Both the position numbers and the translations under genes were made by a program. A stretch of 32,285 bases of DNA from a virus (lineage: Duplodnaviria > Heunggongvirae > Uroviricota > Caudoviricetes): IMG/VR virus record IMGVR_UViG_2728369188_000005, one strand, 5' to 3'. The notes under the pieces are model-generated. The model saw nothing but the letters and a program-made list of their open reading frames with translations, searched no databases and was not told the DNA's origin. Below are positions 2,008 through 32,285 of this stretch, in pieces. Numbering within the stretch: the stretch's first letter is position 1; every line of letters begins with the position of its first letter.

Positions 2008-2223
2008 ATGTACCAGATGGAAAAAATCACAACAGGTGTGTCATACACCACGTCAGCGGTGGGAACGGGCTACTGGTTCCTGCAGTTGCTGGACAGGGTT
2101 TCCCCGTCTCAGTGGGCGGCAATAGGCGTGCTGGGGAGTCTGCTGTTTGGGTTGCTGACATATCTGACTAACCTGTATTTCAAAATCAGAGAGGACCGTC
2201 GTAAGGCGGCGCGGGGAGAGTAA
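2008..2223 (+). CDS. S: Class II holin (pinholin, phage 21 S-like), 71 aa
   Basis: [71 protein letters not shown] closely matches the S21/933W pinholin as I recall it, with two TM segments and a charged C-terminus. The six-frame ORF begins at 1930, but the upstream extension overlaps a hairpin and has no homology; ATG 2008 gives the canonical dual-start MYQM. Confidence 0.85.
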
Positions 2224-2227
2224 AGCG

Positions 2228-2572: not shown

Positions 2573-2622
2573 AGACTTAACATATCCAGGGATTTGAAAT
2601 CGATAAACCCTGATAAATATCC

Positions 2623-3156: not shown

Positions 3157-3246
3157 GCAGAATATTTTGCTAATCAATGACGTTGGCCAAGGCGGACGGA
3201 TAACACGAAATCCTGCGAACTGGCAAAATGTAAGTGAATAAAAGTA

Positions 3247-3285
3247 AAAACCCCGTTTGTTGGCTGCAAGCGGGGTTTTGTGTTT
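3247..3285. terminator. Hairpin with flanking A/T runs after R (intrinsic-terminator-like, either strand)
   Basis: AAAACCCCG(3247-3255) pairs with CGGGGTTTT(3271-3279) across a partly pairable 15-nt loop, followed by GTGTTTCC. An A run precedes it, so it could terminate on either strand. Confidence 0.45.
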
Positions 3286-3354
3286 CCTGACTCTGGAAAA
3301 GTCAAAGGAGAAAGTGTGTTTGATTTTAGCAAACTGATTCGGGAGATTCGAGTG

Positions 3355-3453
3355 ATGGCTGAAAAATTATCCACCTGGAAGTTCATTCTTATCTGGCTGG
3401 TGTTTGTGATTATGGCCTCCGGTTATTTCATCGGTCAGATACGCTGGTGGTGA
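3355..3453 (+). CDS. Candidate 32-aa hydrophobic peptide (MAEKLSTWKFILIWLVFVIMASGYFIGQIRWW)
   Basis: ATG 3355 is preceded by GGGAG (3341-3345). It encodes one predicted TM helix and stops at TGA 3451-3453, one nt before the Rz ATG (3455). Below the 60-aa ORF-track cutoff; found by manual reading. Confidence 0.3.
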   Translation: MAEKLSTWKFILIWLVFVIMASGYFIGQIRWW

Positions 3454-3454
3454 A

Positions 3455-3922
3455 ATGAACCGCGTACTGTGCGTGGTCATCATTGCCCTGCTGGTGGCCT
3501 GTGGTGCGCTTAGTCTGGGGCTGAATCATTACCGTGATAACGCCATAACCTACAAAGAGCAGCGCGATAAAAAAGTCAGTGAGCTGGAGCAGGCAAATGC
3601 AACCATTACTGATATGCAGCAGCGCCAGCGTGATGTTGCTGCACTTGATGCCAGATACTCGAGGGAATTAGCCGATGCGAGAGCTGAAAATGAAACTCTG
3701 CGCGCTGACGTTGCCGCTGGTCGTAAGCGCCTGCGGATCAACGCCACCTGCCCCGGTACCGTGCGTGAAGCCCCCACCACCTCCGGCGTGGATAATGCAA
3801 CCGGCCCCCGACTGGCAGACACCGCTGAACGGGATTATTTCACTCTCAGAGAGCGGTTGATGCTGATGCAGAAGCAGCTGGAAGTGGCGCAGGAATATAT
3901 CCGCACTCAGTGCCTGAAATAA
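3455..3922 (+). CDS. Rz: Rz i-spanin (inner-membrane spanin subunit), 155 aa
   Basis: N-terminal TM segment (VLCVVIIALLVACGAL), then a coiled-coil periplasmic domain; collinear with lambda Rz and contains the embedded Rz1 frame. Confidence 0.9.
   Translation: MNRVLCVVIIALLVACGALSLGLNHYRDNAITYKEQRDKKVSELEQANATITDMQQRQRDVAALDARYSRELADARAENETLRADVAAGRKRLRINATCPGTVREAPTTSGVDNATGPRLADTAERDYFTLRERLMLMQKQLEVAQEYIRTQCLK
3675..3860 (+). CDS. Rz1: Rz1 o-spanin (outer-membrane lipoprotein) embedded in the +1 frame of Rz, about 56-61 aa
   Basis: MRELKMKLCALTLPLVVSACGS has a lipobox (VVSAC) and is followed by the proline-rich PPPPPAWIMQPAPDWQTPLNGI motif typical of lambda Rz1. GAGGGA 8 nt upstream of ATG 3675; alternative start at ATG 3690. 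Confidence 0.85.
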   Translation: MRELKMKLCALTLPLVVSACGSTPPAPVPCVKPPPPPAWIMQPAPDWQTPLNGIISLSESG

Positions 3923-4175
3923 GTTTTGCTGATGCGCGGTATTGTCGCCGTATCCCCGCATTAACAGAGACCGCAGCCCGACCGGGAGACTCCTCTGCGC
4001 GAGTGTGCGGGGATAATCAAAAACGATACACACCGGGGTTTACCGCGTTAACGGAGCGCGGCGTTGTCCCCTCATAGTCGCCTGTCCGGTGCGATGGTGG
4101 AAGAAACCGGACTACATTGAAAATGATAACCATTATCATTTTTGCGGGTCCTTTCCGGCGATCCGGGCCGTTACG

Positions 4176-4187
4176 GGGCGGCGACCT
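4176..4187 (+). other. cos: cosN (12-nt cohesive-end site, GGGCGGCGACCT)
   Basis: An exact GGGCGGCGACCT lies within ...CGTTACGGGGCGGCGACCTCGCGGTTTTTCACTATTTATGAAAATTTTTCAGG, which matches the lambda cos junction as I recall it, about 180 bp upstream of Nu1 as in lambda. Confidence 0.8.
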
Positions 4188-4199
4188 CGCGGTTTTTCA

Positions 4200-4345
4200 C
4201 TATTTATGAAAATTTTTCAGGGAAAATCGTGTCGGTACTTCTCGAATATAACTTTTTGTTTTTCTTTAATATTGCATCCGTAAAGGTCCGACATGAAAGT
4301 GTCCGAAAATGCCTTTTTCTGGCGTTTTCATGTCGGGCCTTGTAT
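4200..4345 (+). promoter_or_regulatory. cosB region (terminase small-subunit binding elements)
   Basis: Between cosN and Nu1. Contains the inverted pair CCGACATGAAA (4288-4298) and TTTCATGTCGG (4326-4336), consistent with oppositely oriented Nu1 R-elements, in an A/T-rich bendable context. Confidence 0.5.
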
Positions 4346-4364
4346 TTGATAATGGGTTGTTTTC

Positions 4365-4913
4365 ATGAAGGTTAATAAAAAGAGGCTTGCCGAAATTTTC
4401 AACGTGGACCCGCGGACGATTGAACGCTGGCAGTCTCAGGGACTCCCTTGCGCCTCCAAAGGTAGTAAGGGCATTGAATCTGTATTTGATACTGCCATGG
4501 CAATTCAGTGGTATGCGCAGAGGGAAACTGATATCGAAAACGAAAAGCTCCGCAAAGAACTGGACGATTTGCGTGCGGCAGCGGAGTCAGATTTACAACC
4601 CGGCACCATTGACTATGAACGCTACCGGCTCACAAAAGCGCAGGCAGATGCGCAGGAACTGAAAAATGCCCGTGAAGACGGAGTAGTGCTGGAAACTGAA
4701 CTGTTTACCTTCATTCTACAACGTGTGGCACAGGAGATTTCGGGGATACTTGTGCGTGTGCCGTTGACATTACAGCGTAAATATCCGGACATTTCACCAT
4801 CACACCTTGATGTGGTGAAAACTGAAATCGCGAAAGCCTCCAATGTTTCAGCTAAGGCCGGTGAAAACGTGGGCGGGTGGATCGATGATTTCAGACGCGC
4901 AGAAGGCAGCTAA
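4365..4913 (+). CDS. Nu1: Terminase small subunit gpNu1, 182 aa
   Basis: [28 protein letters not shown]... is collinear with lambda Nu1 (N-terminal winged-HTH DNA-binding domain); located right after cos. Confidence 0.95.
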
Positions 4914-6813
4914 TGCAGCCGGTGCGATAGCTACAGGGCTTTTATCTCTCATTATTCCTGTTCCACTGACGACAGTTCAGTGGGCCAATAAACATTATTA
5001 CCTTCCTAAAGAGTCGTCTTATACCCCGGGGCGGTGGGAAACACTGCCGTTTCAGGTTGGCATCATGAACTGTATGGGCAACGATCTGATTCGCACGGTT
5101 AACCTGATTAAATCTGCCCGTGTTGGTTATACAAAGATGTTGCTGGGAGTGGAGGCTTATTTTATTGAGCATAAATCACGCAACAGCCTTCTTTTTCAGC
5201 CCACGGACTCAGCTGCTGAAGATTTTATGAAATCTCATGTTGAGCCAACGATAAGGGATGTTCCTGCATTGCTGGAGCTGGCTCCATGGTTCGGAAGAAA
5301 ACACCGCGATAATACGCTCACCCTGAAGCGTTTTTCCTCCGGTGTGGGCTTCTGGTGCCTGGGTGGTGCGGCAGCAAAAAACTACCGTGAAAAATCCGTG
5401 GACGTGGTCTGCTATGACGAACTTTCCTCGTTCGAGCCGGATGTCGAAAAAGAGGGCTCGCCAACCCTGCTGGGGGATAAGCGTATTGAGGGCTCGGTAT
5501 GGCCAAAATCCATTCGCGGCTCGACGCCTAAAATAAAAGGCTCCTGCCAGATCGAAAAAGCGGCCAACGAGTCGGCGCATTTCATGCGTTTTTATGTGCC
5601 CTGCCCGCACTGTGGGGAGGCGCAGTATCTGAAATTTGGCGATGAGTCCACGCCTTTTGGCCTTAAATGGGAGAAGGACAGCCCCGAAAGCGTTTTCTAC
5701 CTTTGTGAACATCATGGCTGCGTGATCCATCAGTCTGAGCTTGACCAGAGCAACGGGCGGTGGATCTGCGAAAACACGGGGATGTGGACCCGCGACGGTC
5801 TGACGTTTTTCAGCGCCGCGGATAATGAAATTCCGCCGCCGCGCTCCATCACGTTCCATATCTGGACGGCGTACAGTCCGTTCACCACCTGGGTACAGAT
5901 AGTCTATGACTGGCTGGATGCACTGAAAGATCCCAACGGCCTGAAAACCTTTGTGAACACCACGCTGGGCGAGACCTGGGAAGAGGCCGTGGGCGAAAAA
6001 CTCGATCACCAGGTACTGATGGATAAGGTCGTGCATTACACGGCGGCGGTGCCAGCCCGGGTGGTTTATCTGACGGCGGGCATTGACTCGCAGCGAAACC
6101 GTTTTGAGATGTATGTCTGGGGATGGGCACCGGGAGAGGAAGCTTTTCTGGTGGATAAAATCATCATTATGGGCCGTCCCGATGAGGAAGAGACGCTGTT
6201 ACGTGTGGATGCGGCGATCAACAAAAAATACTGCCATGCAGACGGAACCGAAATGACCATTTCCCGTGTCTGCTGGGACACCGGGGGGATCGATGGTGAA
6301 ATTGTCTATCAGAGGTCAAAAAAACACGGTGTTTTCCGGGTGCTGCCGGTAAAAGGCGCATCTGTCTATGGCAAGCCGGTGATCACCATGCCGAAAACCC
6401 GCAATCAGCGGGGCGTGTATCTGTGTGAAGTGGGGACGGACACCGCAAAAGAAATTCTCTATGCCCGTATGAAAGCCGATCCCACGCCTGCGGATGAAGC
6501 CACGTCGTATGCCATCCGTTTTCCTGATGATCCGGAGATTTTTTCGCAGACAGAGGCGCAGCAACTGGTCGCGGAAGAGCTTGTGGAGAAGTGGGAAAAA
6601 GGAAAGATGCGTCTGCTGTGGGATAACAAAAAGCGGCGTAACGAAGCGCTGGACTGCCTGGTGTATGCCTATGCGGCATTACGTGTGTCCGTGCAACGCT
6701 GGCAGCTTGATCTGGCTGTACTGGCAAAATCCCGGGAAGAAGAGACGACCCGGCCAACCCTTAAAGAACTGGCAGCGAAGCTGTCCGGAGGAGTGAATGG
6801 TTACAGTCGCTGA
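4885..6813 (+). CDS. A: Terminase large subunit gpA, about 642 aa
   Basis: Collinear with lambda gpA throughout (WETLPFQ..., KSARVGY..., ATPase and nuclease regions). Start chosen at ATG 4885 (MISDAQ...), which overlaps the Nu1 3-prime end as in lambda; the ORF track's upstream ATG at 4843 would add 14 aa. Confidence 0.9.
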
Positions 6814-20175: not shown

Positions 20176-23100
20176 ATGGGAAAAGGTGGCGGTAAGGCAC
20201 ACACGCCTCGTGAGGCGAAGGATAATCTCAAATCCACGCAGATGATGAGTGTGATTGATGCGATTGGTGAGGGACCGATAGAAGGTCCGGTGAAGGGACT
20301 GCAGAGTATTCTGGTGAACAAAACCCCACTGACGGACACGGACGGCAATCCCGTGATACACGGTGTGACGGCGGTCTGGCGCGCCGGGGAGCAGGAGCAG
20401 ACACCACCGGAAGGCTTTGAGTCCTCCGGAGCTGAAACCGGACTGGGCGTGGAAGTGACGAAGGCAAAACCGGTGACGCGCACCATTACGTCCGCGAACA
20501 TTGACCGCCTGCGGATTACCTTCGGGGTGCAGTCACTGGTGGAGACCACCTCAAAGGGTGACCGTAACCCGGCATCCGTCCGCCTGCTGATTCAGTTACA
20601 GCGTAACGGTAACTGGGTGACAGAAAAGGACGTCACCATTAACGGCAAGACCACCTCACAGTTCCTGGCCTCGGTGATTCTGGATAATCTGCCTCCCCGG
20701 CCCTTTAACATCCGGATGGTCAGGGAGACGGCGGACAGCACCACGGACCAGCTGCAGAATAAGACGCTGTGGTCGTCATACACCGAAATCATCGATGTGA
20801 AACAGTGCTACCCGAACACGGCCATTGTGGGGCTGCAGGTGGATGCGGAGCAGTTCGGCGGCCAGCAGATGACGGTGAACTACCATATCCGCGGTCGCAT
20901 CATCCAGGTGCCGTCAAACTATGACCCGGAAAAACGCACGTACAGTGGTATCTGGGACGGCAGTCTGAAACCGGCATACAGCAACAACCCGGCCTGGTGC
21001 CTGTGGGACATGCTGACTCACCCGCGCTACGGCATGGGAAAACGTCTGGGGGCGGCGGATGTGGACAAGTGGGCGCTGTATGCCATCGGGCAGTACTGCG
21101 ACCAGACGGTCCCGGATGGTTTCGGGGGGACAGAGCCGCGGATGACCTTTAATGCGTACCTGGCACAACAGCGTAAGGCGTGGGACGTTCTCAGTGATTT
21201 CTGCTCTGCGATGCGCTGTATGCCGGTATGGAACGGTCAGACGCTGACGTTCGTTCAGGACCGCCCGTCGGATGTGGTGTGGCCGTACACCAACAGCGAT
21301 GTGGTGGTGGATGATAACGGCGTGGGATTCCGCTACAGCTTCAGTGCCCTGAAGGACCGGCACACGGCGGTGGAGGTGAATTACACCGACCCGCAGAACG
21401 GCTGGCAGACCTCCACGGAACTGGTGGAAGACCCGGAAGCCATACTGCGCTACGGACGCAACCTGCTGAAGATGGACGCGTTCGGCTGTACCAGCCGCGG
21501 TCAGGCCCACCGTGCCGGACTGTGGGTGATAAAGACCGAACTGCTGGAAACGCAGACGGTGGATTTCACGCTCGGGTCTCAGGGGCTGCGGCACACACCC
21601 GGTGACATTATTGAAATCTGTGATAATGACTATGCCGGGACCCTGACCGGCGGACGTGTCCTGTCCATTGATGCTGCCACCCGCACCCTGACGCTGGACC
21701 GTGAGGTTACCCTGCCGGAGACAGGTACATCGGCGGTGAACCTGATTAACGGCAGCGGTAAGCCGGTGAGTGTGGACATCACCGCACACCCCGCGCCGGA
21801 CCGGATACAGGTCAGTACCCTGCCTGATGGTGTGGAGACATACGGGGTGTGGGGACTCTCCCTGCCGTCACTGCGCCGTCGCCTGTTCCGCTGTGTCTCC
21901 ATCCGGGAAAACACGGACGGCACCTTTGCCATCACGGCGGTGCAGCACGTACCGGAAAAAGAAGCCATCGTGGATAACGGTGCCCGCTTTGAGCCGCAGT
22001 CAGGCTCCCTGAACAGCGTCATCCCACCGGCAGTGCAGCACCTGACGGTGGAGGTGAGCGCAGCTGACGGCCAGTATCTGGCACAGGCGAAATGGGACAC
22101 GCCGCGGGTGGTGAAGGGGGTGCGCTTCAGTCTGCGACTGACCAGCGGAAGCGGAGAAGACAGCCGTCTGGTGACCACCGCTATCACTGCGGATACAGAG
22201 CATCGTTTCAGTGGTCTGCCGCTCGGGGAATACACCCTGACAGTCAGGGCAATTAACAGTTATGGCCAGCAGGGCGAACCGGCCACCACCACCTTCCGGA
22301 TTAACGCGCCAGCAAAACCCGCCACCATTGAACTGACGCCGGGGTATTTTCAGATAACAGCGGTACCGGTGCTGGCGGTGTATGACCCGACGGTACAGTT
22401 TGAATTCTGGTTCTCAGAAAAACGCATCACGAACACGGCACAGGTGGAAAAATCTGCCCGTTATCTGGGGACTGGCAGTCAGTGGACTGTCTCCGGCCCG
22501 CACATTAAGCCCGGGAAGGATTTCTGGTTTTATGTACGCAGCGTTAACCTGGTGGGGAAATCTGCTTTTGTTGAAGCCAGTGGACGGGCCAGCAATGATG
22601 CAGAAGGGTATCTGGGGCTGTTTCGGGAAAAAATAGGAAAACTGCATCTGGCTCAGGGGCTGTGGGAGCTGATAGACAACAGCCAGCTTGCGGATGAGAT
22701 GGCGGAGATGAAGACCACCATCACCGAAACCCGCAATGAAATCACACAGACGGTCAGTAAAACGCTGGAGGACCAGAGCGCCACCATACAGCAGATACAG
22801 CGCGTGCAGAAGGACACAAATGATGACCTTGCTGCACTTTACATGCTGAAGGTACAGAAAACAAAAAATGGCATACCCTATGTTGCCGGTATTGGAGCGG
22901 GGATTGAGGATACTGATGGCCAGCCCCTGAGCAACATACTGCTGCTGGCTGACCGTATTGCGATGATTAACCCGGAGGACGGCAACACCACGCCGTTATT
23001 TGTGGCGCAGGGGAATCAGTTGTTCATGAACGATGTGTTCCTGAAGCGGCTGTTTGCGGTGAGTATCACCTCGTCCGGCAATCCCCCGACGTTTTCCCTG

Positions 23101-23649
23101 ACGCCGGAGGGCAGGCTGACCGCAAGAAATGCTGATATCAGCGGTAACGTGAATGCGAACTCCGGGACGCTCAACAACGTCACGATTAACGAGAACTGTC
23201 GGGTTCTGGGAAAATTGTCCGCCAACCAGATTGAAGGCGATCTCGTTAAAACAGTGGGCAAAGCTTTCCCCCGGGACTCCCGTGCACCGGAGCGGTGGCC
23301 ATCAGGGACCATTACCGTCAGGGTTTATGACGATCAGCCGTTTGACCGGCAAATTGTTATTCCGGCGGTGGCATTCAGTGGCGCTAAGCATGAGAGAGAG
23401 CATACTGATATTTACTCCTCATGCCGTCTGATAGTGCGGAAAAACGGTGCTGAAATTTATAACCGTACCGCGCTGGATAATACGCTGATTTACAGTGGTG
23501 TTATTGATATGCCTGCCGGTCACGGTCACATGACGCTGGAGTTTTCGGTGTCAGCATGGCTGGTGAATAACTGGTATCCCACAGCAAGTATCAGCGATTT
23601 GCTGGTTGTTGTGATGAAGAAAGCCACTGCAGGCATCACGATTAGCTGA
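20176..23649 (+). CDS. J: Host specificity protein / central tail fibre gpJ, 1157 aa
   Basis: Collinear with lambda J (1132 aa) from [21 protein letters not shown]... through the fibronectin-like repeats to a C-terminal receptor-binding region ending ...[25 protein letters not shown]. Confidence 0.95.
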
Positions 23650-23668
23650 ATTTTATAACCCAGATACG

Positions 23669-23692
23669 GGCGCCAGAAATGGCGCCTTTTTT
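23669..23692 (+). terminator. Intrinsic terminator after J
   Basis: GGCGCCA(23669-23675), loop GAAA, TGGCGCC(23680-23686), then TTTTTT(23687-23692). The second copy at 26727-26750 keeps the structure through compensatory changes. Confidence 0.7.
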
Positions 23693-23716
23693 ATTGCAGA
23701 AAAGCGAGAGGTAATT

Positions 23717-24316
23717 ATGCGTAAATTATGTGCTGTTATTCTGTCCACAGTAGTCTGGCTGGTCGCCGCTGGTACGCCAGCGAGCGCAGCAGAGCATCAG
23801 TCCACACTAAGCGCGGGGTATCTTCATGCCCGTACGAACGCTCCCGGCAGCGATAATCTGAACGGGATTAACGTGAAATACCGTTATGAGTTTACGGACG
23901 CGCTGGGGCTGATTACGTCCTTCAGTTATGCCAATGCTGAGGATAAGCAAAAAACGCACTACAGCGATACCCGCTGGCATGAAGATTCCGTGCGTAACCG
24001 CTGGTTCAGCGTGATGGCGGGGCCGTCTGTGCGCGTGAATGAATGGTTCAGCGCGTATGTGATGGCGGGTATGGCTTACAGCCGTGTGTCGACTTTCTCC
24101 GGGGATTATCTCCGCGTAACTGACAACAAGGGGAAAAAGCACGATGTGCTGACCGGAAGTGATGACGGTCGCCACAGCAACACGTCTCTGGCGTGGGGGG
24201 CTGGCGTGCAGTTTAACCCGACCGAATCCGTGGCCATTGATATTGCTTATGAAGGCTCCGGCAGTGGCGACTGGCGCACTGACGGTTTCATCGTGGGTGT
24301 CGGTTATAAGTTCTGA
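23717..24316 (+). CDS. lom: Lom outer-membrane protein (Ail/Lom family beta-barrel), 199 aa
   Basis: Signal peptide (MRKLCAVILSTVVWLVAAGTPASA) followed by alternating beta-strand sequence ending in the C-terminal aromatic GYKF; lambda lom position directly after J. GAGAGG Shine-Dalgarno. Confidence 0.9.
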   Translation: MRKLCAVILSTVVWLVAAGTPASAAEHQSTLSAGYLHARTNAPGSDNLNGINVKYRYEFTDALGLITSFSYANAEDKQKTHYSDTRWHEDSVRNRWFSVMAGPSVRVNEWFSAYVMAGMAYSRVSTFSGDYLRVTDNKGKKHDVLTGSDDGRHSNTSLAWGAGVQFNPTESVAIDIAYEGSGSGDWRTDGFIVGVGYKF

Positions 24317-24342
24317 TTAGCCAGGTAACACAGTGTTATGAC

Positions 24343-24369
24343 AGCCCGCCGGTTCAGGCGGGCTTTTTT
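24343..24369 (+). terminator. Intrinsic terminator after lom
   Basis: AGCCCGCC(24343-24350), loop GGTTCA, GGCGGGCT(24357-24364), then TTTTT(24365-24369). Confidence 0.65.
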
Positions 24370-24380
24370 GTGGAGTGGAT

Positions 24381-24390
24381 NNNNNNNNNN
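24381..24390. other. Assembly gap (10 N)
   Basis: Run of n. Sequence before the gap ends at the stf 5-prime leader (GTGGAGTGGAT); sequence after it resumes in the middle of a J homologue. Confidence 0.95.
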
Positions 24391-26707
24391 CTTCAGCGCC
24401 CTGAAGGACCGCCATAATGCCGTTGAGGTGAACTGGATTGACCCGAACAACGGCTGGGAGACGGCGACAGAGCTTGTTGAAGATACGCAGGCCATTGCCC
24501 GTTACGGTCGTAATGTCACGAAGATGGATGCCTTTGGCTGTACCAGCCGGGGGCAGGCACACCGCGCCGGGCTGTGGCTGATTAAAACGGAACTGCTGGA
24601 AACGCAGACCGTGGATTTCAGCGTGGGCGCAGAAGGGCTTCGCCATGTGCCGGGCGATGTTATTGAAATCTGCGATGATGACTATGCCGGTATCAGCACC
24701 GGTGGTCGCGTGCTGGCGGTGAACAGCCAGACCCGGACGCTGACTCTCGACCGTGAAATCACGCTGCCATCCTCCGGTACCACGCTGATAAGCCTGGTTG
24801 ACGGAAGTGGCAATCCGGTCAGCGTGGAGGTTCAGTCCGTCACCGACGGCGTGAAGGTAAAAGTGAGCCGTGTTCCTGACGGTGTTGCTGAATACAGCGT
24901 ATGGGGGCTGAAGCTGCCGACGCTGCGCCAGCGACTGTTCCGCTGCGTGAGTATCCGTGAGAACGACGACGGCACGTATGCCATCACCGCCGTGCAGCAT
25001 GTGCCGGAAAAAGAGGCCATCGTGGATAACGGGGCGCACTTTGACGGCGAACAGAGTGGCACGGTGAATGGTGTCACGCCGCCAGCGGTGCAGCACCTGA
25101 CCGCAGAAGTCACTGCAGACAGCGGGGAATATCAGGTGCTGGCGCGATGGGACACACCGAAGGTGGTGAAGGGCGTGAGCTTCCTGCTTCGCCTGACCGT
25201 GGCAGCGGATGACGGCAGTGAGCGGCTGGTCAGCACGGCCCGGACGACGGAAACCACATACCGCTTCACGCAACTGGCGCTGGGAAACTACAGGCTGACA
25301 GTCCGGGCGGCAAATGCCTGGGGGCAGCAGGGCGATCCGGCATCGGTATCGTTCCGTATTGCCGCACCGGCAGCGCCGTCGCGGATTGAGCTGACGCCGG
25401 GCTATTTTCAGATAACCGCCACGCCCCATCTTGCCGTTTATGATCCGACGGTACAGTTTGAGTTCTGGTTCTCGGAAAAGCGGATTGCGGATATCAGGCA
25501 GGTTGAAACCACAGCCCGCTATCTTGGCACGGCGCTGTACTGGATAGCTGCCAGTATCAATATCAAACCGGGCCATGATTATTATTTTTACATCCGCAGT
25601 GTGAACACCGTTGGCAAATCGGCATTTGTGGAGGCTGTTGGCCAGCCGAGTGATGATGCATCCGGCTATCTGGATTTTTTCAAAGGCGAGATAGGGAAAA
25701 GCCATCTGGCTCAGGAGCTGTGGACGCAGATTGATAACGGTCAGCTTGCGCCTGACCTGGCTGAAATCAGGACGTCCATTACGGATGTCAGCAATGAAAT
25801 CACGCAGACCGTCAATAAGAAACTGGAAGACCAGAGTGCGGCAATTCAGCAGATACAGAAGGTTCAGGTTGATACAAATAATAACCTGAACAGCATGTGG
25901 GCTGTGAAGCTGCAGCAGATGCAGGACGGACGCCTTTATATCGCGGGTATTGGTGCCGGTATTGAGAATACCCCTGACGGTATGCAGAGTCAGGTGCTGC
26001 TGGCGGCGGACAGGATTGCGATGATTAATCCTGCGAATGGCAATACAAAGCCGATGTTTGTTGGTCAGGGCGATCAGATATTCATGAACGAAGTGTTCCT
26101 GAAATATCTGACGGCTCCCACCATTACCAGCGGCGGTAATCCTCCGGCATTTTCCCTGACACCGGACGGGCGGCTGACGGCGAAAAATGCCGATATCAGC
26201 GGTAGCGTGAATGCGAACTCCGGGACGCTCAACAACGTCACGATTAACGAGAACTGTCGGGTTCTGGGAAAACTGTCCGCGAACCAGATTGAAGGCGATC
26301 TCGTTAAAACAGTGGGCAAAGCTTTCCCCCGGGACTCCCGTGCACCGGAGCGGTGGCCATCAGGGACCATTACCGTCAGGGTTTATGACGATCAGCCGTT
26401 TGACCGGCAAATTGTTATTCCGGCGGTGGCATTCAGTGGCGCTAAGCATGAGAGAGAGCATACTGATATTTACTCCTCATGCCGTCTGATAGTGCGGAAA
26501 AACGGTGCTGAAATTTATAACCGTACCGCGCTGGATAATACGCTGATTTACAGTGGCGTTATTGATATGCCTGCCGGTCACGGTCACATGACGCTGGAGT
26601 TTTCGGTGTCAGCATGGCTGGTAAATGACTGGTATCCCACAGCAAGTATCAGCGATTTGCTGGTTGTGGTGATGAAGAAAGCCACCGCAGGCATCAGTAT
26701 CAGCTGA
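24391..26707 (+). CDS. J: Second gpJ copy, 5-prime truncated by the gap (C-terminal ~770 aa present), diverged from copy 1
   Basis: Begins [31 protein letters not shown]..., which aligns with J copy 1 from about residue 385. Roughly 70-80% identical by eye through most of its length, but nearly identical over the last ~500 nt (26206-26620 versus 23148-23560). Confidence 0.85.
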
Positions 26708-26726
26708 ATTTTATAACCCCAATACG

Positions 26727-26750
26727 GGCGTCAGAAATGACGCCTTTTTT
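26727..26750 (+). terminator. Intrinsic terminator after J copy 2
   Basis: GGCGTCA(26727-26733), loop GAAA, TGACGCC(26738-26744), then TTTTTT. Differs from copy 1 by a compensatory pair (C to T in the left arm, G to A in the right arm). Confidence 0.7.
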
Positions 26751-26774
26751 ATTGCAGAAAAGCGAGAGGTAATT

Positions 26775-27374
26775 ATGCGTAAATTATGTGCTGTTATTCT
26801 GTCCACAGTAGTCTGGCTGGTCGCCGCTGGTACGCCAGCGAGCGCAGCAGAGCATCAGTCCACACTAAGCGCCGGGTATCTTCAGACCCATACTGATATG
26901 CCCGGCAACGATGACCTGAAGGGCATTAACGTGAAATACCGTTATGAATTTACGGACACGCTGGGGCTGGTGACGTCATTCAGTTATGCCAATGCCAAAG
27001 ATGAGCAAAAAACGCATTACAGCGATACCCGCTGGCATGAAGATTCAGTGCGTAACCGCTGGTTCAGCATGATGGCGGGGCCGTCTGTACGCGTGAATGA
27101 ATGGTTCAGTGCTTATGCGATGGCAGGTGTGGCTTACAGCCGTGTTTCGACTTTTTCCGGGGATTATCTCCGCGTAACTGACAGCAAGGGGAAAACGCAC
27201 GATGTGCTGACCGGAAGTGATGACGGTCGCCACAGCAACACGTCTCTGGCGTGGGGGGCTGGCGTGCAGTTTAACCCGACCGAATCCGTGGCCATTGATA
27301 TTGCTTATGAAGGCTCCGGCAGTGGTGACTGGCGCACTGACGGTTTCATCGTGGGTGTCGGTTATAAATTCTGA
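26775..27374 (+). CDS. lom: Lom outer-membrane protein, second copy, 199 aa
   Basis: About 90% identical by eye to lom copy 1 (differences include HARTNAPGSDNLNG versus QTHTDMPGNDDLKG); same signal peptide and C-terminus. Confidence 0.9.
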   Translation: MRKLCAVILSTVVWLVAAGTPASAAEHQSTLSAGYLQTHTDMPGNDDLKGINVKYRYEFTDTLGLVTSFSYANAKDEQKTHYSDTRWHEDSVRNRWFSMMAGPSVRVNEWFSAYAMAGVAYSRVSTFSGDYLRVTDSKGKTHDVLTGSDDGRHSNTSLAWGAGVQFNPTESVAIDIAYEGSGSGDWRTDGFIVGVGYKF

Positions 27375-27400
27375 TTAGCCAGGTAACACAGTGTTATGAC

Positions 27401-27427
27401 AGCCCGCCGGTTCAGGCGGGCTTTTTT
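27401..27427 (+). terminator. Intrinsic terminator after lom copy 2
   Basis: Same AGCCCGCC / GGCGGGCT hairpin and T run as after lom copy 1. Confidence 0.65.
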
Positions 27428-27438
27428 GTGGAGTGGAT

Positions 27439-29846
27439 ATGGCAGCAGTAAAAATCTCAGGTGTGCTGAAAGATGGTGCGGGAAAACCAATACAGAACTG
27501 CACTATTCAACTGAAGGCAAAGCGTAACAGCACCACGGTACTGGTGAACACGGTGGCCTCTGAAAATCCTGATGAAGCCGGGCGTTACAGCATGGATGTT
27601 GAGTATGGCCAGTACAGCGTCACCCTGCTGGTTGAAGGTTNNNNNNNNNNNNNNNNNNNNNNNNNNNNNNNNNNNNNNNNNNNNNNNNNNNNNNNNNNNN
27701 NNNNNNNNNTTCCAGACCAGGTACGCTGAATGATTTTCTCGGTGCCATGACGGAGGATGATGTCCGACCGGAGGCACTGCGCCGCTTTGAGCAGATGGTG
27801 GAAGAAGCGGCACGCAACGCTGAAGCCGCCTCTCAGAGCGCAGCGGCGGCAAAGAAATCCGAAACTGCAGCGGCATCATCGAAGAACGCGGCGAAAACCT
27901 CAGAAACGAATGCAGCTAATAGTGCACAGGCGGCAGCGACCTCAAAGACTGCATCGGCAAACTCCGCGACAGCAGCCAAAAAATCAGAAACCAACGCGAA
28001 AAATAGCGAGACAGCCGCAAAGACGAGCGAAACCAACGCAAAGTCCAGCCAGACGGCAGCGAAAACCAGCGAAACGAATGCCAAAGCCAGTGAAACTGCG
28101 GCAAAAAACAGCCAGGTTGCAGCAGCCCAAAGCGAGAGCGCGGCAGCCGGTTCTGCGACTTCAGCAGCTGGATCAGCAACTGCTGCAGCTAACAGCCAGA
28201 AAGCAGCGAAGACGAGCGAAACTAACGCAAAGTCCAGCCAGACGGCAGCGAAGACCAGCGAAACGAATGCCAAAGCCAGCGAAACTGCGGCGAAAAACAG
28301 CCAGGTTGCAGCAGCCCAAAGCGAGAGCGCGGCAGTTGGTTCTGCAAGCGCGGCGGCTGCTTCTGCCACTGCATCAGCCAACAGTCAAAAAGCGGCAAAA
28401 ACCAGTGAAACCAATGCAAAGACAAGCGAGACTGCAGCGGCCAACTCGGCGAAAGCATCCGCTGCAAACCAGACCGCTGCAAAAGCAAGTGAAGACGCAG
28501 CCAGAGAGTATGCAAGCCAGGCAGCAGATCCGTATAAATATGTCTTACAGCCGCTGCCTGATGTGTGGATACCGTTTAACGATTCACTGGATATGATTAC
28601 GGGCTTTTCGCCATCATATAAAAAGATTGTTATTGGTGACGACGAAATAACGATGCCTGGCGACAAGATTGTTAAGTTTAAACGTGCATCGAAAGCAACC
28701 TATATTAACAAATCTGGTGTGCTGACAGAGGCTGCCATTGATGAGCCACGATTTGAACGTGATGGCCTGCTTATTGAGGGGCAAAGAACTAATCTTCTGC
28801 TTAATTCAACAAATCCATCTAAATGGAATAAGTCAGGCAATCTGGAACTCACAGAAATATCCACGGATTCTTTTAATTTTACTTATGGGAGATTTACTGT
28901 AAAAGATACTCTTATTGGTCAGACAAGTGCTATTAATATCGTAACGGTTTCTGGCAGTAAAGGGTTTGATGTCACAGGTGATGAAAAATATGTGACCATT
29001 TCATGCCGTGTAAGAAGTGATGTTGAAAATGTAAGGTGTCGTTTAAGATTTGAACACCATGATGGTTATACTTACACTTTTTTGGGAGATGCTTACCTCA
29101 ATTTATCAACACTTGTAATTGATAAAGCTGGTACTGCTGCAGACCGTATTATTGCAAAGGCTGTAAAAGATGAGGTTACTGGTTGGATTTTCTATCAGGC
29201 TACAATTAATGCACTAGATACAGAGAGCATGATTGGTGCGATGGTTCAATACGCTCCTGTAAAAGGTTCAGGCACAGCATCTGGAGACTATCTGGATATC
29301 GCAACTCCACAAGTGGAAGGTGGATCAAGTGCTTCGTCATTTATTGTAACTGATATAACTGCAAGCACTCGCGCAAGCGATATGGTGACAGTCCCAATCA
29401 AGAATAACCTTTATAATCTTCCTTTTACGGTTCTTTGTGAGGTACATAAGAACTGGTATAAAACGCCAAATGCAGCACCGCGTGTTTTTGATACCGGCGG
29501 TCATCAAACCGGAGCGGCTATTATTCTTGGCTTCGGTCGTTCAACAGATTACGACGGATTTCCTTATTGTGATATAGGTTTGGCTAACAGACGGGTAAAC
29601 GAAAACGCATCGCTTGAAAAAATGGTTATGGGGATGCGTGTAAAGTCAGATCAGTCTACGTGCTCAGTAAGTAACGGGCGTATATCCAGCGAAAAGAAAG
29701 CCACATGGTCCTATATTCAGAACTCCGCAATTATCCGTATTGGAGGCCAGACTACAGCCGGGTTACGTCATTTATTTGGTCATGTCAGGAATTTCAGAAT
29801 ATGGCACAAGGCATTGACTGATGCTCAGATGGGGGAGTCAATCTAA
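27439..29846 (+). CDS. stf: Side tail fibre protein Stf, interrupted by the N gap at 27641-27709
   Basis: N-terminus MAAVKISGVLKDGAGKPIQNCTIQLKAKRNSTTVLVNTVASENPDEAGRYSMDVEYGQYSVTLLVEG matches lambda Stf. After the gap the frame continues ...PGTLNDFLGAMTEDDVRPEALRRFEQMVEE..., then an Ala/Ser/Thr-rich repeat shaft and a ~430-aa C-terminal domain. True length and frame continuity across the gap are unknown. Confidence 0.85.
27641..27709. other. Assembly gap (69 N) inside stf
   Basis: Run of n. Confidence 0.95.
28018..28395 (+). repeat. Tandem duplication of a 189-bp (63-aa) unit within the stf shaft
   Basis: GACGAGCGAAAC...AGCCAGACGGCAGCG recurs with period 189 nt (28022 and 28211); protein unit AKTSETNAKSSQTAAKTSETNAKASETAAKNSQVAAAQSESAA... 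occurs twice. Confidence 0.7.
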
Positions 29847-30074
29847 TGAAAGATTTAACACTCAAATTTGCAGACAGGGCCGACTTTTCGGCCTTTATGG
29901 ATAGCATTGGCTATTATGATGACGAGTCGATGCAGGATGATATTCTTATTGACGTGATAGGTAATGTGTACAAAGAAACCGGAGAACTGACTGAAGATGG
30001 CGAACCGGTATGTGTTAAGGAAGACGGATATTTTGTAAACGTGCGCATCATTAATGATTCGCAAATATCGTCAT
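29846..30074 (+). CDS. Hypothetical protein, 3-prime end lost in the N gap (N-terminal 76 aa visible)
   Basis: ATG 29846 overlaps the stf stop (TAATG), with GGGGGAG 8 nt upstream. MKDLTLKFADRADFSAFMDSIGYYDDESMQDDILIDVIGNVYKETGELTEDGEPVCVKEDGYFVNVRIINDSQISS; acidic and soluble; not recognised. Confidence 0.5.
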
Positions 30075-30172
30075 NNNNNNNNNNNNNNNNNNNNNNNNNN
30101 NNNNNNNNNNNNNNNNNNNNNNNNNNNNNNNNNNNNNNNNNNNNNNNNNNNNNNNNNNNNNNNNNNNNNNNN
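30075..30172. other. Assembly gap (98 N)
   Basis: Run of n. Confidence 0.95.
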
Positions 30173-30833
30173 GGGAGATGTCAGTAAGGCAAAGGAAGAT
30201 ATTTCCTCAATTAACGTAAAAGTATCAACGCTTCAGACTGATATGGACAGTGCAAAGCAGGATATCAGTACCAGATACACAAAAACAGAAGTGGATAATA
30301 AGCTGAAAAACAAAGTGGAAGTGAACGATCTGGAAAGTGGTCGTTATGGCGGAGATTTTTACCCGCTGACTGGCCGTGAAGCGTTTTATTTATGGGGATT
30401 GGGCACAACTACAGCGGCGGCAAATCTTTATCTTAATCCTGACCCCGCAATTTCGTCTGTGCTGCGGTCAACATCGTCTATCCGCTATAAACATTCAGTA
30501 GAGACGATAGATTCAGAGCACGCCGATCTCATTTTCAGGATGCGCCCTGTGTGGTACAGGTCGCAATGCGAAAATGACAGGCGTGACTGGGGATTCTATG
30601 GATTGATTGCCGAGGAAGTAGGAGAAATTGCCCCTCAGTTTGTTCACTGGCGACCAGCTAACGAGAATGATGCTCCTGAAGCTATTTCCAGCAATGGCCT
30701 TGTTGCCGAAGGTGTAATGTACGAACGTCTGGTTGTTCCACTGATTCACCATATCCAGAAACTGACTGAAAGAGTTGATGAACTTGAGTCAGAATTAAAG
30801 TTGTTATCAACTTCCCGAAGCGATATCGGATAA
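30173..30833 (+). CDS. C-terminal part of a tail fibre/tailspike with a peptidase-S74-type intramolecular chaperone domain (5-prime end in gap)
   Basis: Coiled-coil stretch (DISSINVKVSTLQTDMDSAKQDISTRYTKTEVDNKLKNKVEVNDLE), then SSIRYKHSVETIDSEHADLIF...DWGFYGLIAEEVGEIAPQFV...NGLVAEGVMYERLVVPLIHHIQKLTERVDELESELKLL. From memory this is the hallmark of the self-cleaving C-terminal chaperone of phage fibres (endosialidase, T5 L-fibre type). Confidence 0.6.
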
Positions 30834-30843
30834 AGGAGGAGTA

Positions 30844-31137
30844 ATGGATATAACACCTTTCCTTCATGCACTTTGTGCTGTGGCTGCGCAGGTACTGGTT
30901 GGTCTTTTTACCGGAAACTGGGCTTACGGGGCGATAGCCGGTTGTACGTTCTTCATTGCTCGTGAACATACCCAGGCAGAATATCGCTGGATTGAAATGT
31001 TCGGGCATGGCAAGCGAATGAATATGCCGTGGTGGGGCGGTTTTGATCCGCGCGCGTGGGATGTAGCAAGTCTGATGGATTTTGCTGTGCCGGTGGTGGC
31101 GTGTCTGCTGGTCTGGCTGTTGGTTAATCGTGGGTGA
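30844..31137 (+). CDS. Small predicted membrane protein, 97 aa, function unknown
   Basis: Perfect AGGAGG Shine-Dalgarno 4 nt upstream of ATG 30844. Two or three hydrophobic segments (FLHALCAVAAQVLVGLF, AYGAIAGCTFFIA, FAVPVVACLLVWLLV). Confidence 0.6.
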   Translation: MDITPFLHALCAVAAQVLVGLFTGNWAYGAIAGCTFFIAREHTQAEYRWIEMFGHGKRMNMPWWGGFDPRAWDVASLMDFAVPVVACLLVWLLVNRG

Positions 31138-31147
31138 AAAAAGGTGA

Positions 31148-31276
31148 GCTGTATATGCAACGGAGGAAGAAACCTCGTTGCTGGAAGCCTGGAAGAAGTA
31201 TCGGGTGTTGCTGAACCGTGTTGATACATCAACTGCACCTGATATTGAGTGGCCTACGAACCCTGTCAGGGAGTAA
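31148..31276 (+). pseudogene. tfa: Remnant 3-prime end of a tail fibre assembly gene (tfa), no start codon
   Basis: Reads ...[39 protein letters not shown] stop, the conserved Tfa C-terminus. It is preceded in frame by a stop at 31145-31147 and has no upstream Tfa N-terminal domain. Confidence 0.6.
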
Positions 31277-31416
31277 TCATTGGGATTATGCCGCAGCACG
31301 TCTTAAGCAAGAACGTGCTGCGGTTGGATGCTATTTTTTCCCTGAAGCGGAAAACATTACTACAGTACCTTGAACCTTGGTTTTAACATTCTCGAAATGC
31401 TCTGAGAGTATATGTG

Positions 31417-31950
31417 TTAAGCCTTCTTCGGAATCTTTTGTGNNNNNNNNNNNNNNNNNNNNNNNNNNNNNNNNNNNNNNNNNNNNNNNNNNNNNNNNNN
31501 NNNNNNNNNNNNNNNNNNNNNNNNNNNNNNNNNNNNNNNNNNNNNNNNNNNNNNNNNNNNNNNNNNNNNNNNNNNNNNNNNNNNNNNNNNNNNNNNNNNN
31601 NNNNNNNNNNNNNNNNNNNNNNNNNNNNNNNNNNNTTCAAAAACATCATGGCTAATTTTATGTTTAATTTTTGATTCCCCAGCCCTTGTAGATGCCGCGT
31701 TCAGGCTAGCTTCGTTCAAATCCATTAAAGATATCAGACTACTCTCAGGTACGTGAGTAAGATAAAACCCAGTTCCAACACCAATATCCAGATGGTTGTT
31801 ACCTAAATGTTCCAGAAAGTGTGGAAGAAGGTGTTCCTTTGTAGGACATCCCCATGCAAGCCGATTTGATACTCCCAAAACCCACCAGTCATAAAGCTTT
31901 AGGGTAAGTGGTGTGTAAATTTTAGCCCCATCATCTGTGTTTTTTTTCAT
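31417..31950 (-). CDS. Class I SAM-dependent methyltransferase-like protein (minus strand), interrupted by the N gap at 31443-31635
   Basis: Minus-strand ORF whose N-terminal 105 aa (MKKNTDDGAKIYTPLTLKLYDWWVLGVSNRLAWGCPTKEHLLPHFLEHLGNNHLDIGVGTGFYLTHVPESS...) contains a Rossmann motif-I-like LDIGVGTGF. GGTGA Shine-Dalgarno precedes ATG 31950 (alternative ATG 31962). The C-terminal 8 codons after the gap end at the stop at 31417-31419; frame across the gap is unverifiable. Confidence 0.45.
   Translation of the reverse strand: MKKNTDDGAKIYTPLTLKLYDWWVLGVSNRLAWGCPTKEHLLPHFLEHLGNNHLDIGVGTGFYLTHVPESSLISLMDLNEASLNAASTRAGESKIKHKISHDVFEXXXXXXXXXXXXXXXXXXXXXXXXXXXXXXXXXXXXXXXXXXXXXXXXXXXXXXXXXXXXXXXXXQKIPKKA
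31443..31635. other. Assembly gap (193 N)
   Basis: Run of n. Confidence 0.95.
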
Positions 31951-32018
31951 TGATTTCACCATGTTATAGTTTTATTTGTGAATTAAATCAATTATGGCGA
32001 TGAATTACAAGGGGTTAA

Positions 32019-32285
32019 ATGCTGCCGCAGCATAGCGATATTGAAATAGCCTGGTATGCTTCGATACAGCAGGAGCCGAATGGCTGGAAGACCGTCACCA
32101 CACAGTTCTACATCCAGGAATTCAGTGAGTATATTGCGCCACTGCAGGATGCTGTAGATCTGGAAATCGCAACGGAGGAAGAAAGATCGTTGCTGGAGGC
32201 ATGGAATAAATATCGGGTGTTGTTGAATCGTGTTGATACATCAACTGCACCTGATATTGAGTGGCCGACTTCACCTGCAGAGTAA
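32019..32285 (+). CDS. tfa: Tail fibre assembly protein Tfa-like, short form (C-terminal domain only), 88 aa
   Basis: ...[50 protein letters not shown] matches the conserved lambda/e14 Tfa C-terminus. AAGGGG Shine-Dalgarno before ATG 32019; stop coincides with the window end. Confidence 0.7.

What the first reader, a model, noticed from the sequence alone, without database searches (positions are those of the whole stretch)
29846..30833. Additional fibre gene(s) downstream of stf with a C-terminal intramolecular-chaperone domain
Directly after stf, overlapping its stop, is a gene whose visible N-terminus is unrecognised. After a 98-N gap comes the C-terminal ~220 aa of a fibre-like protein, with a coiled-coil neck and an S74-type self-cleaving chaperone module (DWGFYGLIAEEVGEIAPQF...VMYERLVVPLIHHIQKLTERVDELESEL). 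Lambda-type Stf normally uses the separate Tfa chaperone, so a chaperone-domain fibre alongside stf and tfa remnants suggests a second receptor-binding protein or a replaced fibre tip. Whether the two visible parts are one gene cannot be told because of the gap.
Basis: partly seen in the sequence, partly recalled or inferred. Interest (0 to 1): 0.5.

Follow-up and report, generated by a model that had tools for sequence, protein, structure and literature searches.

The report
Small self-cleaving accessory tail fibre gene
Downstream of the side tail fibre gene of this E. coli lambda-like prophage lie two separate small genes, a 93-residue protein of unknown function and a 234-residue mini tail fibre with a self-cleaving chaperone domain; both are common and already annotated in E. 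coli and its phages, so the finding is real but ordinary.

Summary
An ORF starts at 29846, overlapping the stf stop (TAATG). After the N-run comes the 219-codon C-terminus of a protein with a heptad coiled coil and a Peptidase_S74 chaperone domain (Pfam 27.3 bits, cutoff 22; Thr115|Ser116...Lys121 matches the phage T5 pb1 cleavage site).

E. coli genomes identical on both flanks show what the gap hides: 106 bases, a stop and a new start. There are therefore two genes, a 93-aa acidic protein of unknown function and a 234-aa S74 protein, of which only the first 15 residues are hidden.

The 234-aa gene sits in an exchangeable third slot of a three-gene fibre module (main fibre, 93-aa protein, S74 protein). 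This module occurs in lambdoid, T1-like, Nonagvirus and T5-like phages. The slot holds either this mini form or a ~345-aa form with a middle domain and a different S74 subtype, or it is empty. Both forms share the N-terminal peptide MATSTVIPxDIxxLK.

The mini form has no head domain, is under purifying selection and occurs in 746 of 5426 complete E. coli genomes. It is most likely a short accessory fibre that docks on the Stf complex and matures by self-cleavage. Docking, cleavage and receptor are all untested. Novelty is low.

The parts
27439..29846 (+). stf, the main side tail fibre (792 aa in identical genomes). It consists of a phage_tail_N domain, an Ala-rich KTSETNA-type repeat shaft and a distal half like the GTA head spike fibre with a LamG-like end. 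It is interrupted by the scaffold gap at 27641-27709.
   Evidence: NF048003, E 2e-15; 6tb9 Rcc01080, E 2.7e-4; phrog_1419.
29846..30074 (+). Visible 76 codons of the 93-aa gene (p93). It is an acidic protein (pI 4.05) of unknown function. Its start overlaps the stf stop, and its last 17 codons and stop lie in the gap.
   Evidence: phrog_1361 unknown; no Pfam or NCBIfam hit; only 47 clusters in 1.84 billion proteins, nearly all stand-alone proteins or fragments of about 120 aa or less; AlphaFold pLDDT 80.6 with no informative fold match.
30075..30172 (.). Scaffold gap (98 N). In genomes that are 100% identical on both flanks it is 106 bases. These hold the end of p93, a 9-base spacer with the ribosome-binding site GAGGAAG, and the first 15 codons (MATSTVIPDDIKTLK) of the S74 gene.
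   Evidence: The right edge of the gap coincides with the cassette breakpoint against phage 2G7b.
30174..30275 (+). Heptad coiled-coil shaft of the 234-aa protein (residues 16-49 are visible; the heptads start at residue 11).
   Evidence: a/d pattern; model helix 11-47; heptad-unit indels among homologues.
30339..30473 (+). Conserved 'neck' (residues 71-115, G..F..L...TTT..AN.Y..P....V.RST). This would be the distal end of the mature product. The same segment precedes this S74 subtype at the C-terminus of long fibres.
   Evidence: Alignments. It is disordered in the monomer model, as expected for an intertwined trimer.
30474..30491 (+). Predicted autocleavage site and catalytic dyad: Thr115|Ser116 (TCG at 30474-30476) to Lys121 (AAA at 30489-30491).
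   Evidence: Ser116 and Lys121 are invariant in 31 homologues. The Pfam S74 match starts at residue 116. The spacing matches T5 pb1 Thr1263|Ser1264...Lys1269 (PMC4690869).
30474..30833 (+). S74 intramolecular chaperone domain (residues 116-234, 13.8 kDa) with a C-terminal helix at 198-233, followed by the stop codon.
30844..31137 (+). 97-aa predicted membrane protein. It follows the fibre module in lambdoid phages whether or not the S74 slot is filled. It is probably not part of the fibre.
   Evidence: phrog_1443; phage 21 annotation: 2 transmembrane domains.
31157..31276 (+). tfa remnant (C-terminal fragment, pseudogene).
   Evidence: RefSeq pseudogene; 92% repeat of 32169-32266.
32019..32285 (+). 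Second tfa C-terminal fragment (Caudo_TAP profile positions 75-131 only).

Best explanation
The interval holds two separate, intact, co-transcribed genes downstream of stf.

The first gene encodes a 93-aa acidic protein (p93). It always accompanies this type of main fibre, and its role is unknown.

The second gene encodes a 234-aa mini tail fibre with these parts:
- a conserved 15-residue N-terminal peptide;
- a coiled coil of about six heptads;
- a conserved neck of about 45 residues;
- a C-terminal S74 intramolecular chaperone.

Inferred mechanism:
1. Three chains trimerise, nucleated by the chaperone domain.
2. The Ser116/Lys121 dyad then cuts the Thr115-Ser116 bond and releases the 13.8-kDa chaperone.
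3. A 12.6-kDa-per-chain 'headless' trimeric stub remains.
4. The stub docks through its conserved N-terminal peptide on the Stf/p93 complex as an accessory branch. There it either contributes a small binding tip or stabilises the fibre.

Shown: the gene structure, the domain identity, the catalytic residues, the cassette behaviour and purifying selection.

Inferred: trimerisation, cleavage, docking, presence in the virion and any receptor.
For: Two genes:
- Genomes 100% identical on both flanks carry a stop, a 9-base spacer with a ribosome-binding site and a new ATG inside the gap.

S74 domain:
- Pfam score above the gathering cutoff, starting at Ser116.
- Ser116 and Lys121 invariant in 31 homologues.
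- PDB sequence and fold matches to solved chaperone domains.
- The site matches T5 Thr1263|Ser1264...Lys1269.

A functional gene:
- dN/dS is 0.15-0.31 before the cleavage site and 0.08-0.23 in the chaperone. One homologue lacks exactly one heptad.
- The gene is present and annotated in 746 of 5426 complete E. coli genomes.
- It is kept by virulent Drexlerviridae.

A fibre slot rather than a helper of Stf:
- In phages 2G7b, HannyBb, Tritos, PhiR63_1, PhiR46_1, ESCO3 and the T5-like HMD-P4, the same position holds a 333-351-aa protein. It has the same N-terminal peptide, a coiled coil, a middle domain of about 170-190 aa and a different S74 subtype.
- DNA homology with 2G7b breaks 44 bases into the gene and resumes at its stop.
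- Phages 21 and Lambda_ev203 lack the gene cleanly.
- The type of Stf C-terminus does not track the presence or the type of the slot gene.

Fibre-shaft features:
- The sequence ISTRYTKTEVDNKLK aligns to the repeat motif in the shaft of the 8hqz L-shaped fibre.

Precedent:
- In DT57C and DT571/2, LtfB attaches to LtfA through its N-terminal 45 residues, and both proteins carry S74 domains (PMC4728585).
Against: - There is no head or receptor-binding domain between the coiled coil and the neck, so a receptor-binding role is not evident.
- No experiment was found showing that any member of this slot is in virions or is cleaved.
- The docking partner is unidentified. The N-terminal peptide stays conserved while p93 drops to 25-43% identity, so co-variation gives no answer.
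- Residues 59-114 are at low confidence in the monomer model.
- BASEL annotators call the homologue a 'putative lateral tail fiber chaperone'.
Confidence: 0.6

Rival explanations
1. The 234-aa protein is an assembly factor that acts in trans. It would not be a virion component; its S74 domain or coiled coil would help the separate Stf (or Stf plus p93) to trimerise or fold. This is what the database name 'putative lateral tail fiber chaperone' implies.
For: - The BASEL annotation of the KarlJaspers and PeterMerian homologues and of HMD-P4.
- This Stf has neither an S74 domain of its own nor an intact Tfa.
- The mini form has no head domain.
- Loss of LtfB destabilises LtfA in DT571/2.
Against: - The name appears to derive from the Pfam title. 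No experiment was found.
- Near-identical Stf C-termini pair with two different S74 subtypes, and homologous C-termini occur with no slot gene at all, as in phages 21 and Lambda_ev203.
- The ~345-aa alleles carry a sizeable middle domain, typical of a passenger that stays in the virion.
- S74 domains characterised so far act in cis on their own upstream chain (own knowledge).
Confidence: 0.2
2. It is a decaying relic: the C-terminal end of a longer S74-type fibre left behind when the fibre tip was replaced.
For: - The neck plus S74 segment (about residues 55-234) is 53-64% identical to the C-termini of longer fibre proteins (P0036, P0042, P0045).
- phrog_3299 aligns the whole protein to positions 1147-1384 of a 1385-position profile.
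- tfa relics lie nearby.
Against: - It has its own ribosome-binding site and ATG, and an N-terminal peptide shared with other slot proteins.
- dN/dS is well below 1 in both halves, and indels come in heptad units.
- It is intact in 740+ E. coli genomes and in dozens of virulent phages at 55-60% identity.
Confidence: 0.05
3. The two visible parts are one gene spanning the gap: a single fibre of about 330 aa.
For: Only that the gap hides the junction in this assembly, and that its nominal length (98 N) differs from the 106 bases of the reference genomes.
Against: - All identical or near-identical complete genomes and phages show a stop and a new start.
- The two visible parts are in different reading frames relative to the 106-base filling.
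- p93 homologues are essentially all stand-alone proteins of about 90-120 aa or fragments. The only longer hits (150, 1797 and 2928 aa) are not fibre fusions; the last two are repeat matches over about 30 residues.
Confidence: 0.02

Closest known systems
Phage T5 L-shaped tail fibre pb1, C-terminal intramolecular chaperone (PDB 4UW7/4UW8; PMC4690869)
   Same: - An S74 domain at the extreme C-terminus.
- The same scissile Thr|Ser bond, with Lys five residues after the Ser.
- A C-terminal helix.
- This Stf also shares Ala-rich KTSETNA-type shaft repeats.
   Different: pb1 is a 1396-aa single-gene fibre with a bullet-shaped receptor-binding domain of about 290 aa before the cleavage site. Here the passenger is only 115 aa with no head, and the gene is a separate add-on to another fibre.
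Branched lateral fibres LtfA/LtfB of the T5-like phages DT57C and DT571/2 (PMC4728585)
   Same: - Two fibre genes in tandem.
- The second protein attaches to the first through a short conserved N-terminal segment.
- An S74 domain on the add-on protein.
- A modular locus prone to recombination.
   Different: - LtfA also has an S74 domain; this Stf does not.
- There is no p93-like gene between ltfA and ltfB.
- No sequence similarity was found between the N-terminal peptide here and any other PDB chain (only the 1076-aa LtfA-like chain of 8hqz was hit).
- LtfB carries a real receptor-binding region.
The ~345-aa slot-3 proteins of phages 2G7b, Tritos, HannyBb, ESCO3 and HMD-P4 ('tail fiber protein' / 'endosialidase chaperone')
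   Same: - The same genomic slot after stf and p93.
- The same N-terminal peptide MATSTVIPDDIKTLK followed by a coiled coil.
- A C-terminal S74 domain.
   Different: They have a middle domain of about 170-190 aa and the classical SDRDLKxNI S74 subtype (Pfam 52 bits). The window's protein goes straight from coiled coil to neck and has the RSTSSxRYK subtype.
Drexlerviridae homologues (KarlJaspers bas06_0035, PeterMerian, SECphi27, swan01 and others)
   Same: The same mini architecture (221-231 aa), 55-60% identity, and the same three-gene context.
   Different: They are carried by virulent T1-like phages, have a different number of heptads, and are annotated as chaperones without experimental support.
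Lambda Stf/Tfa
   Same: The N-terminal phage_tail_N attachment domain of Stf, the position downstream of J and lom, and remnants of tfa nearby.
   Different: The distal half of this Stf is like the GTA head spike fibre, not the lambda tip. There is no intact Tfa. Two other small genes follow stf instead.

Membership tests
Peptidase_S74 / intramolecular chaperone auto-processing domain (PF13884) | Match to the family HMM above the curated threshold | tested here: met
   27.2-27.3 bits against a cutoff of 22, E 4.6e-6, profile positions 1-57 of 58, starting at residue 116.
Peptidase_S74 / intramolecular chaperone auto-processing domain (PF13884) | Catalytic Ser-Lys dyad (S-x4-K) at the start of the domain, preceded by the scissile bond | tested here: met
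   T115|S116-S-I-R-Y-K121. Ser116 and Lys121 are invariant in 31 homologues. The spacing is the same as T5 Thr1263|Ser1264...Lys1269.
Peptidase_S74 / intramolecular chaperone auto-processing domain (PF13884) | Fold of solved chaperone domains, ending in a long helix that forms the trimeric coiled coil | tested here: met
   Model pLDDT of about 90 over residues 120-230 with a helix at 198-233. Foldseek hits: 7dc3 MyRF ICA E 3e-5 (probability 1.0), and 3gw6/3gud endoNF chaperone E 0.04-0.07. This is a monomer model only.
Peptidase_S74 / intramolecular chaperone auto-processing domain (PF13884) | Autoproteolytic release of the domain after trimer folding | not testable with these tools
   This needs expression of the wild type against S116A or K121A. 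The predicted products are 12.6 and 13.8 kDa.
Phage receptor-binding tail fibre | A distinct receptor-binding (head or tip) domain upstream of the chaperone | tested here: not met
   Only a coiled coil (residues 11-49) and a conserved neck of about 45 residues precede Ser116. No domain hit was found there. The 345-aa alleles do have a middle domain.
Phage receptor-binding tail fibre | Presence in the virion and an effect on adsorption or host range | not testable with these tools
   No proteomic or genetic data were found for any member.
Branched lateral fibre (LtfA/LtfB-like) | The add-on fibre carries a conserved N-terminal adaptor that is independent of its variable distal part | tested here: met
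   M[AV]T[SKV]T[VN]IPxDIxxLK is shared by the mini and ~345-aa alleles across four phage lineages, and the recombination breakpoint lies just after it.
Branched lateral fibre (LtfA/LtfB-like) | Physical attachment of the add-on fibre to the main fibre | not testable with these tools
   No multimer prediction was available, and co-variation was uninformative.
Lambda Stf/Tfa system | An intact Tfa (Caudo_TAP) chaperone gene next to stf | tested here: not met
   Only C-terminal fragments remain (profile positions 75-131 of 131), and RefSeq marks both as pseudogenes.
GTA head spike fibre domain (NF048003), for the neighbouring Stf | HMM match above the cutoff in the distal half of Stf | tested here: met
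   57.6 bits against a cutoff of 36, residues 435-636. 6tb9 Rcc01080 E 2.7e-4.

The most novel reading that the evidence does not exclude
The 'headless' mini S74 protein is not a receptor binder. It represents a new use of the self-cleaving chaperone module, in one of two ways:
- a cap or strut that docks on the end of the GTA-spike-like Stf through its N-terminal peptide, and whose chaperone domain acts in trans or is retained transiently to control when the fibre becomes active;
- a placeholder that occupies the docking site and is swapped for head-bearing alleles by recombination.
Probability: 0.12. Interest if true: 0.55.

Novelty: new member of a known kind. Interest (0 to 1): 0.25.

Why it matters
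The fibre locus of lambdoid prophages is the main determinant of which strains they adsorb to, and it is a target for engineering delivery particles. This analysis shows that a widespread three-gene module (main fibre, p93, exchangeable S74 protein) is shared by lambda-like, T1-like, Nonagvirus and T5-like phages. That gives a defined slot and a defined breakpoint, about codon 15 of the slot gene, for swapping accessory fibres. It also flags two common but uncharacterised proteins: p93 and the headless mini fibre. The specific gene in this window is already in RefSeq and is not surprising in itself.

Tried and rejected
- **Literature.** I looked for experimental work on the slot-3 protein in the BASEL papers, RBPseg, T1-like phage papers and the swan01 proteomics. 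None addresses it.
- **JakobBernoulli Gp36.** I checked whether this protein, described as a coiled-coil plus chaperone-domain fibre, is a slot-3 gene. It is not; it is a single-gene lateral fibre.
- **N-terminal adaptor.** I looked for similarity to LtfB, phiEco32 gp15 or any solved structure and found none.
- **Docking partner.** I tried to infer it from co-variation of the N-terminal peptide with p93 or with the Stf C-terminus. The result was uninformative.
- **One-gene reading.** Rejected.
- **Relic reading.** Rejected on selection and distribution.
Full report
**What is in the sequence**

The window is the late region of a lambda-like E. coli prophage: terminase through J, lom and stf. 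At 29846 an ATG shares its A with the stf stop (TAATG), and the ORF runs into a run of 98 N at 30075-30172. From 30174 a 219-codon frame runs to a TAA at 30831-30833.

Pfam Peptidase_S74 matches this frame at 27.2 bits, above the curated cutoff of 22.

**Closing the gap by comparison**

Megablast against complete E. coli genomes found records identical to the window on both sides of the gap. Positions 30173-31442 are 100% identical. Positions 27710-30074 are 99.7% identical, and all 7 mismatches fall in the Ala-rich stf repeat at 27920-28223.

In those genomes (for example NZ_CP033762, locus L001) the hidden stretch is 106 bases, not 98. The other N-runs also have untrue lengths: 69 N against 40 bases, and 193 N against 230 bases. 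These are scaffold gaps with estimated sizes.

The 106 bases contain:
- the last 17 codons and the stop of a 93-aa ORF;
- a 9-base spacer with the ribosome-binding site GAGGAAG;
- the ATG and first 15 codons of a 234-aa ORF.

RefSeq annotates the two ORFs as 'hypothetical protein' (WP_059319530) and 'tail fiber domain-containing protein' (WP_096837116). That the strain behind the window has the same 106 bases is an inference from the identical flanks.

**The 234-aa protein**

Its layout is as follows.
- **Residues 1-15:** MATSTVIPDDIKTLK.
- **Residues 11-49:** six heptads, with a = I,V,I,V,M,I and d = L,A,I,L,A,R. The model has a helix at 11-47.
- **A TKTEVDNKLK element:** it aligns to the shaft repeat of the 1076-aa L-shaped fibre in 8hqz.
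- **Residues 71-115:** a conserved neck (G..F..L...TTT..AN.Y..P....V.RST).
- **Residues 116-234:** the S74 domain.

The Pfam match begins exactly at Ser116. Ser116 and Lys121 are invariant in a 31-sequence alignment that reaches down to 26% identity.

The local sequence T115|S116-S-I-R-Y-K121 has the same geometry as T5 pb1 Thr1263|Ser1264...Lys1269. In pb1 the Ser-to-Ala mutant blocks cleavage, and the Ser leaves with the chaperone (PMC4690869).

The AlphaFold monomer model has pLDDT of about 90 over the domain. Foldseek places it with MyRF ICA (7dc3, E 3e-5) and with the endosialidase chaperone structures 3gw6 and 3gud. Residues 59-114 are at low confidence in the monomer, as expected for a segment that folds only in an intertwined trimer.

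Predicted cleavage would give a 12.6-kDa mature chain and a 13.8-kDa released chaperone. No domain lies between the coiled coil and the neck, so the fibre is 'headless'.

**A three-gene module with an exchangeable third slot**

The order stf, p93, S74 protein recurs in four phage lineages:
- lambdoid phages (PhiR49_1, IdasGreatGrand, PhiR55_1);
- virulent T1-like Drexlerviridae (KarlJaspers, PeterMerian, SECphi27, swan01 and others);
- a Nonagvirus (ESCO3);
- a T5-like Tequintavirus (HMD-P4), where it sits at the L-shaped-fibre locus.

The third slot has three states.
- **Mini form (221-234 aa).** This is the form in the window.
- **Long form (333-351 aa).** It has the same N-terminal peptide and a coiled coil, a middle domain of about 170-190 aa, and a different, classical S74 subtype (SDRDLKxNI; Pfam 52 bits). 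It occurs in 2G7b, HannyBb, Tritos, PhiR63_1, PhiR46_1, ESCO3 and HMD-P4.
- **Empty.** This is the case in phage 21, Lambda_ev203 and 4A7.

DNA comparison gives clean cassette edges. Homology between L001 and 2G7b runs through stf and p93 and ends 44 bases into the slot gene. It resumes at the start of the next gene, which encodes the 97-aa membrane protein. Against phage 21, homology resumes right after the slot gene's stop.

The right edge of the window's gap is exactly the first of these breakpoints. The window also carries a second, 2G7b-like copy of J C-terminus, lom and the stf N-terminus at 24391-27640 (97.6% to 2G7b, 86% to L001). The draft genome therefore very probably has a second lambdoid prophage that shares this module, which would explain why the assembly breaks here.

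**Is it functional, and as what?**

Nei-Gojobori dN/dS between alleles is 0.15-0.31 for residues 1-115 and 0.08-0.23 for the chaperone domain. PhiR55_1 lacks exactly one heptad. The gene is intact and annotated in 746 of 5426 complete E. coli genomes, and it is retained by virulent phages. A relic is therefore unlikely.

Some databases call the homologues 'putative lateral tail fiber chaperone'. I found no experiment behind that name. Three observations argue against an obligate trans-chaperone for Stf:
- Near-identical Stf C-termini (this window, 2G7b, ESCO3, HMD-P4) pair with either slot allele.
- The KarlJaspers-type C-terminus also occurs in phage 21 with no slot gene.
- The long alleles carry a passenger domain typical of a virion component.

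The best-supported reading is an accessory fibre protein. Its conserved N-terminal peptide would be the docking adaptor and its distal part the exchangeable element. This is analogous to LtfB on LtfA in DT57C and DT571/2 (PMC4728585).

What the headless mini allele contributes is not resolved. It could be a small tip exposed when the chaperone is released, as proposed for T5 pb1, or it could give structural support. I give the accessory-fibre mechanism about 0.6, the trans-assembly factor about 0.2, and the relic and one-gene readings 0.05 or less.

**p93**

This 10.7-kDa, pI 4.05 protein follows this type of main fibre in every lineage, with or without the slot gene. Its function is therefore tied to Stf rather than to the S74 protein.

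The family is narrow: 47 clusters among 1.84 billion representatives, nearly all about 90-120 aa or fragments. The longer hits (150, 1797 and 2928 aa) are not fibre fusions; the last two match only a short acidic repeat over about 30 residues.

The AlphaFold model (pLDDT 80.6) consists of a beta strand, two helices and a long beta hairpin. It matches nothing informative. Its function remains unknown. A fibre-specific chaperone or a distal adaptor are guesses.

**The neighbouring Stf and the tfa pieces**

This Stf (792 aa) has these parts:
- the lambda-type N-terminal attachment domain (PF08400);
- T5-like Ala-rich repeats;
- a distal half matching the Rhodobacter GTA head-spike-fibre domain (NF048003, 57.6 bits; 6tb9, E 2.7e-4);
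- a LamG-like C-terminal motif.

It is not a lambda-type Tfa-dependent tip. The two tfa fragments (31157-31276 and 32019-32285) are C-terminal pseudogene pieces that flank a methyltransferase gene on the opposite strand.

**Verdict**

The gap hides a gene boundary. The fibre is a complete but headless 234-aa protein in an exchangeable slot of a widespread fibre module. It is a new member of a known kind, already present and annotated in public databases. Interest is low to moderate (0.25).

Noticed in passing
window 24381-27640: After a 10-N gap right at the stf start, the window repeats a J C-terminus, lom and stf N-terminus. This copy is only 86% identical to the first copy (22313-24380) but 97.6% identical to phage 2G7b. 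It is most likely a contig from a second lambdoid prophage that was scaffolded in, not a real tandem duplication.
   Followed up: partly
window 24381-24390, 27641-27709, 30075-30172, 31443-31635: The four N-runs are scaffold gaps whose lengths differ from the true sequence in identical genomes (69 vs 40, 98 vs 106, 193 vs 230 bases). Reading frames cannot be carried across them.
   Followed up: yes
window 31157-31254 and 32169-32266; 31331-31962 (minus strand): Two tfa 3' fragments, 92% identical, form direct repeats around a class I SAM-dependent methyltransferase gene (YbcY-like) on the opposite strand. It looks like a moron inserted into a duplicated tfa.
   Followed up: partly
window 30844-31137: A 97-aa predicted membrane protein (phrog_1443, unknown function) follows the fibre module in lambdoid phages whether the S74 slot is filled or empty. 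In phage 21 it is annotated with a signal sequence and 2 transmembrane domains. It may be a lysogenic-conversion or exclusion gene.
   Followed up: no
window 28700-29846 (Stf residues ~430-792): The distal half of Stf matches the head spike fibre of the Rhodobacter capsulatus gene transfer agent (NF048003; PDB 6tb9) and ends in a LamG-like motif (RHLFGHVRNFRIWHKALTD). This links the distal part of a coliphage side fibre to a GTA head appendage.
   Followed up: partly
window 27920-28440: The Ala-rich KTSETNA-type shaft of Stf contains internal repeats about 85% identical (28010-28250 vs 28191-28439). All 7 differences from the reference genome fall in this region, so repeat collapse in the short-read assembly is possible.
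   Followed up: no
L014 (Salmonella phage HMD-P4) 2371-6002; L013 (ESCO3) 505-3947; L003 (KarlJaspers) 2765-5666: The same three-gene module (main fibre, ~92-aa protein, S74 protein) sits at the lateral-fibre locus of T5-like, Nonagvirus and T1-like phages. The module therefore moves between unrelated siphovirus lineages. [quoted passage not shown]
   Followed up: partly
L001 7164-10029: In the complete genomes the prophage end abuts potB, potA and pepT, the known potB-side lambdoid prophage site of extraintestinal E. coli strains.
   Followed up: no
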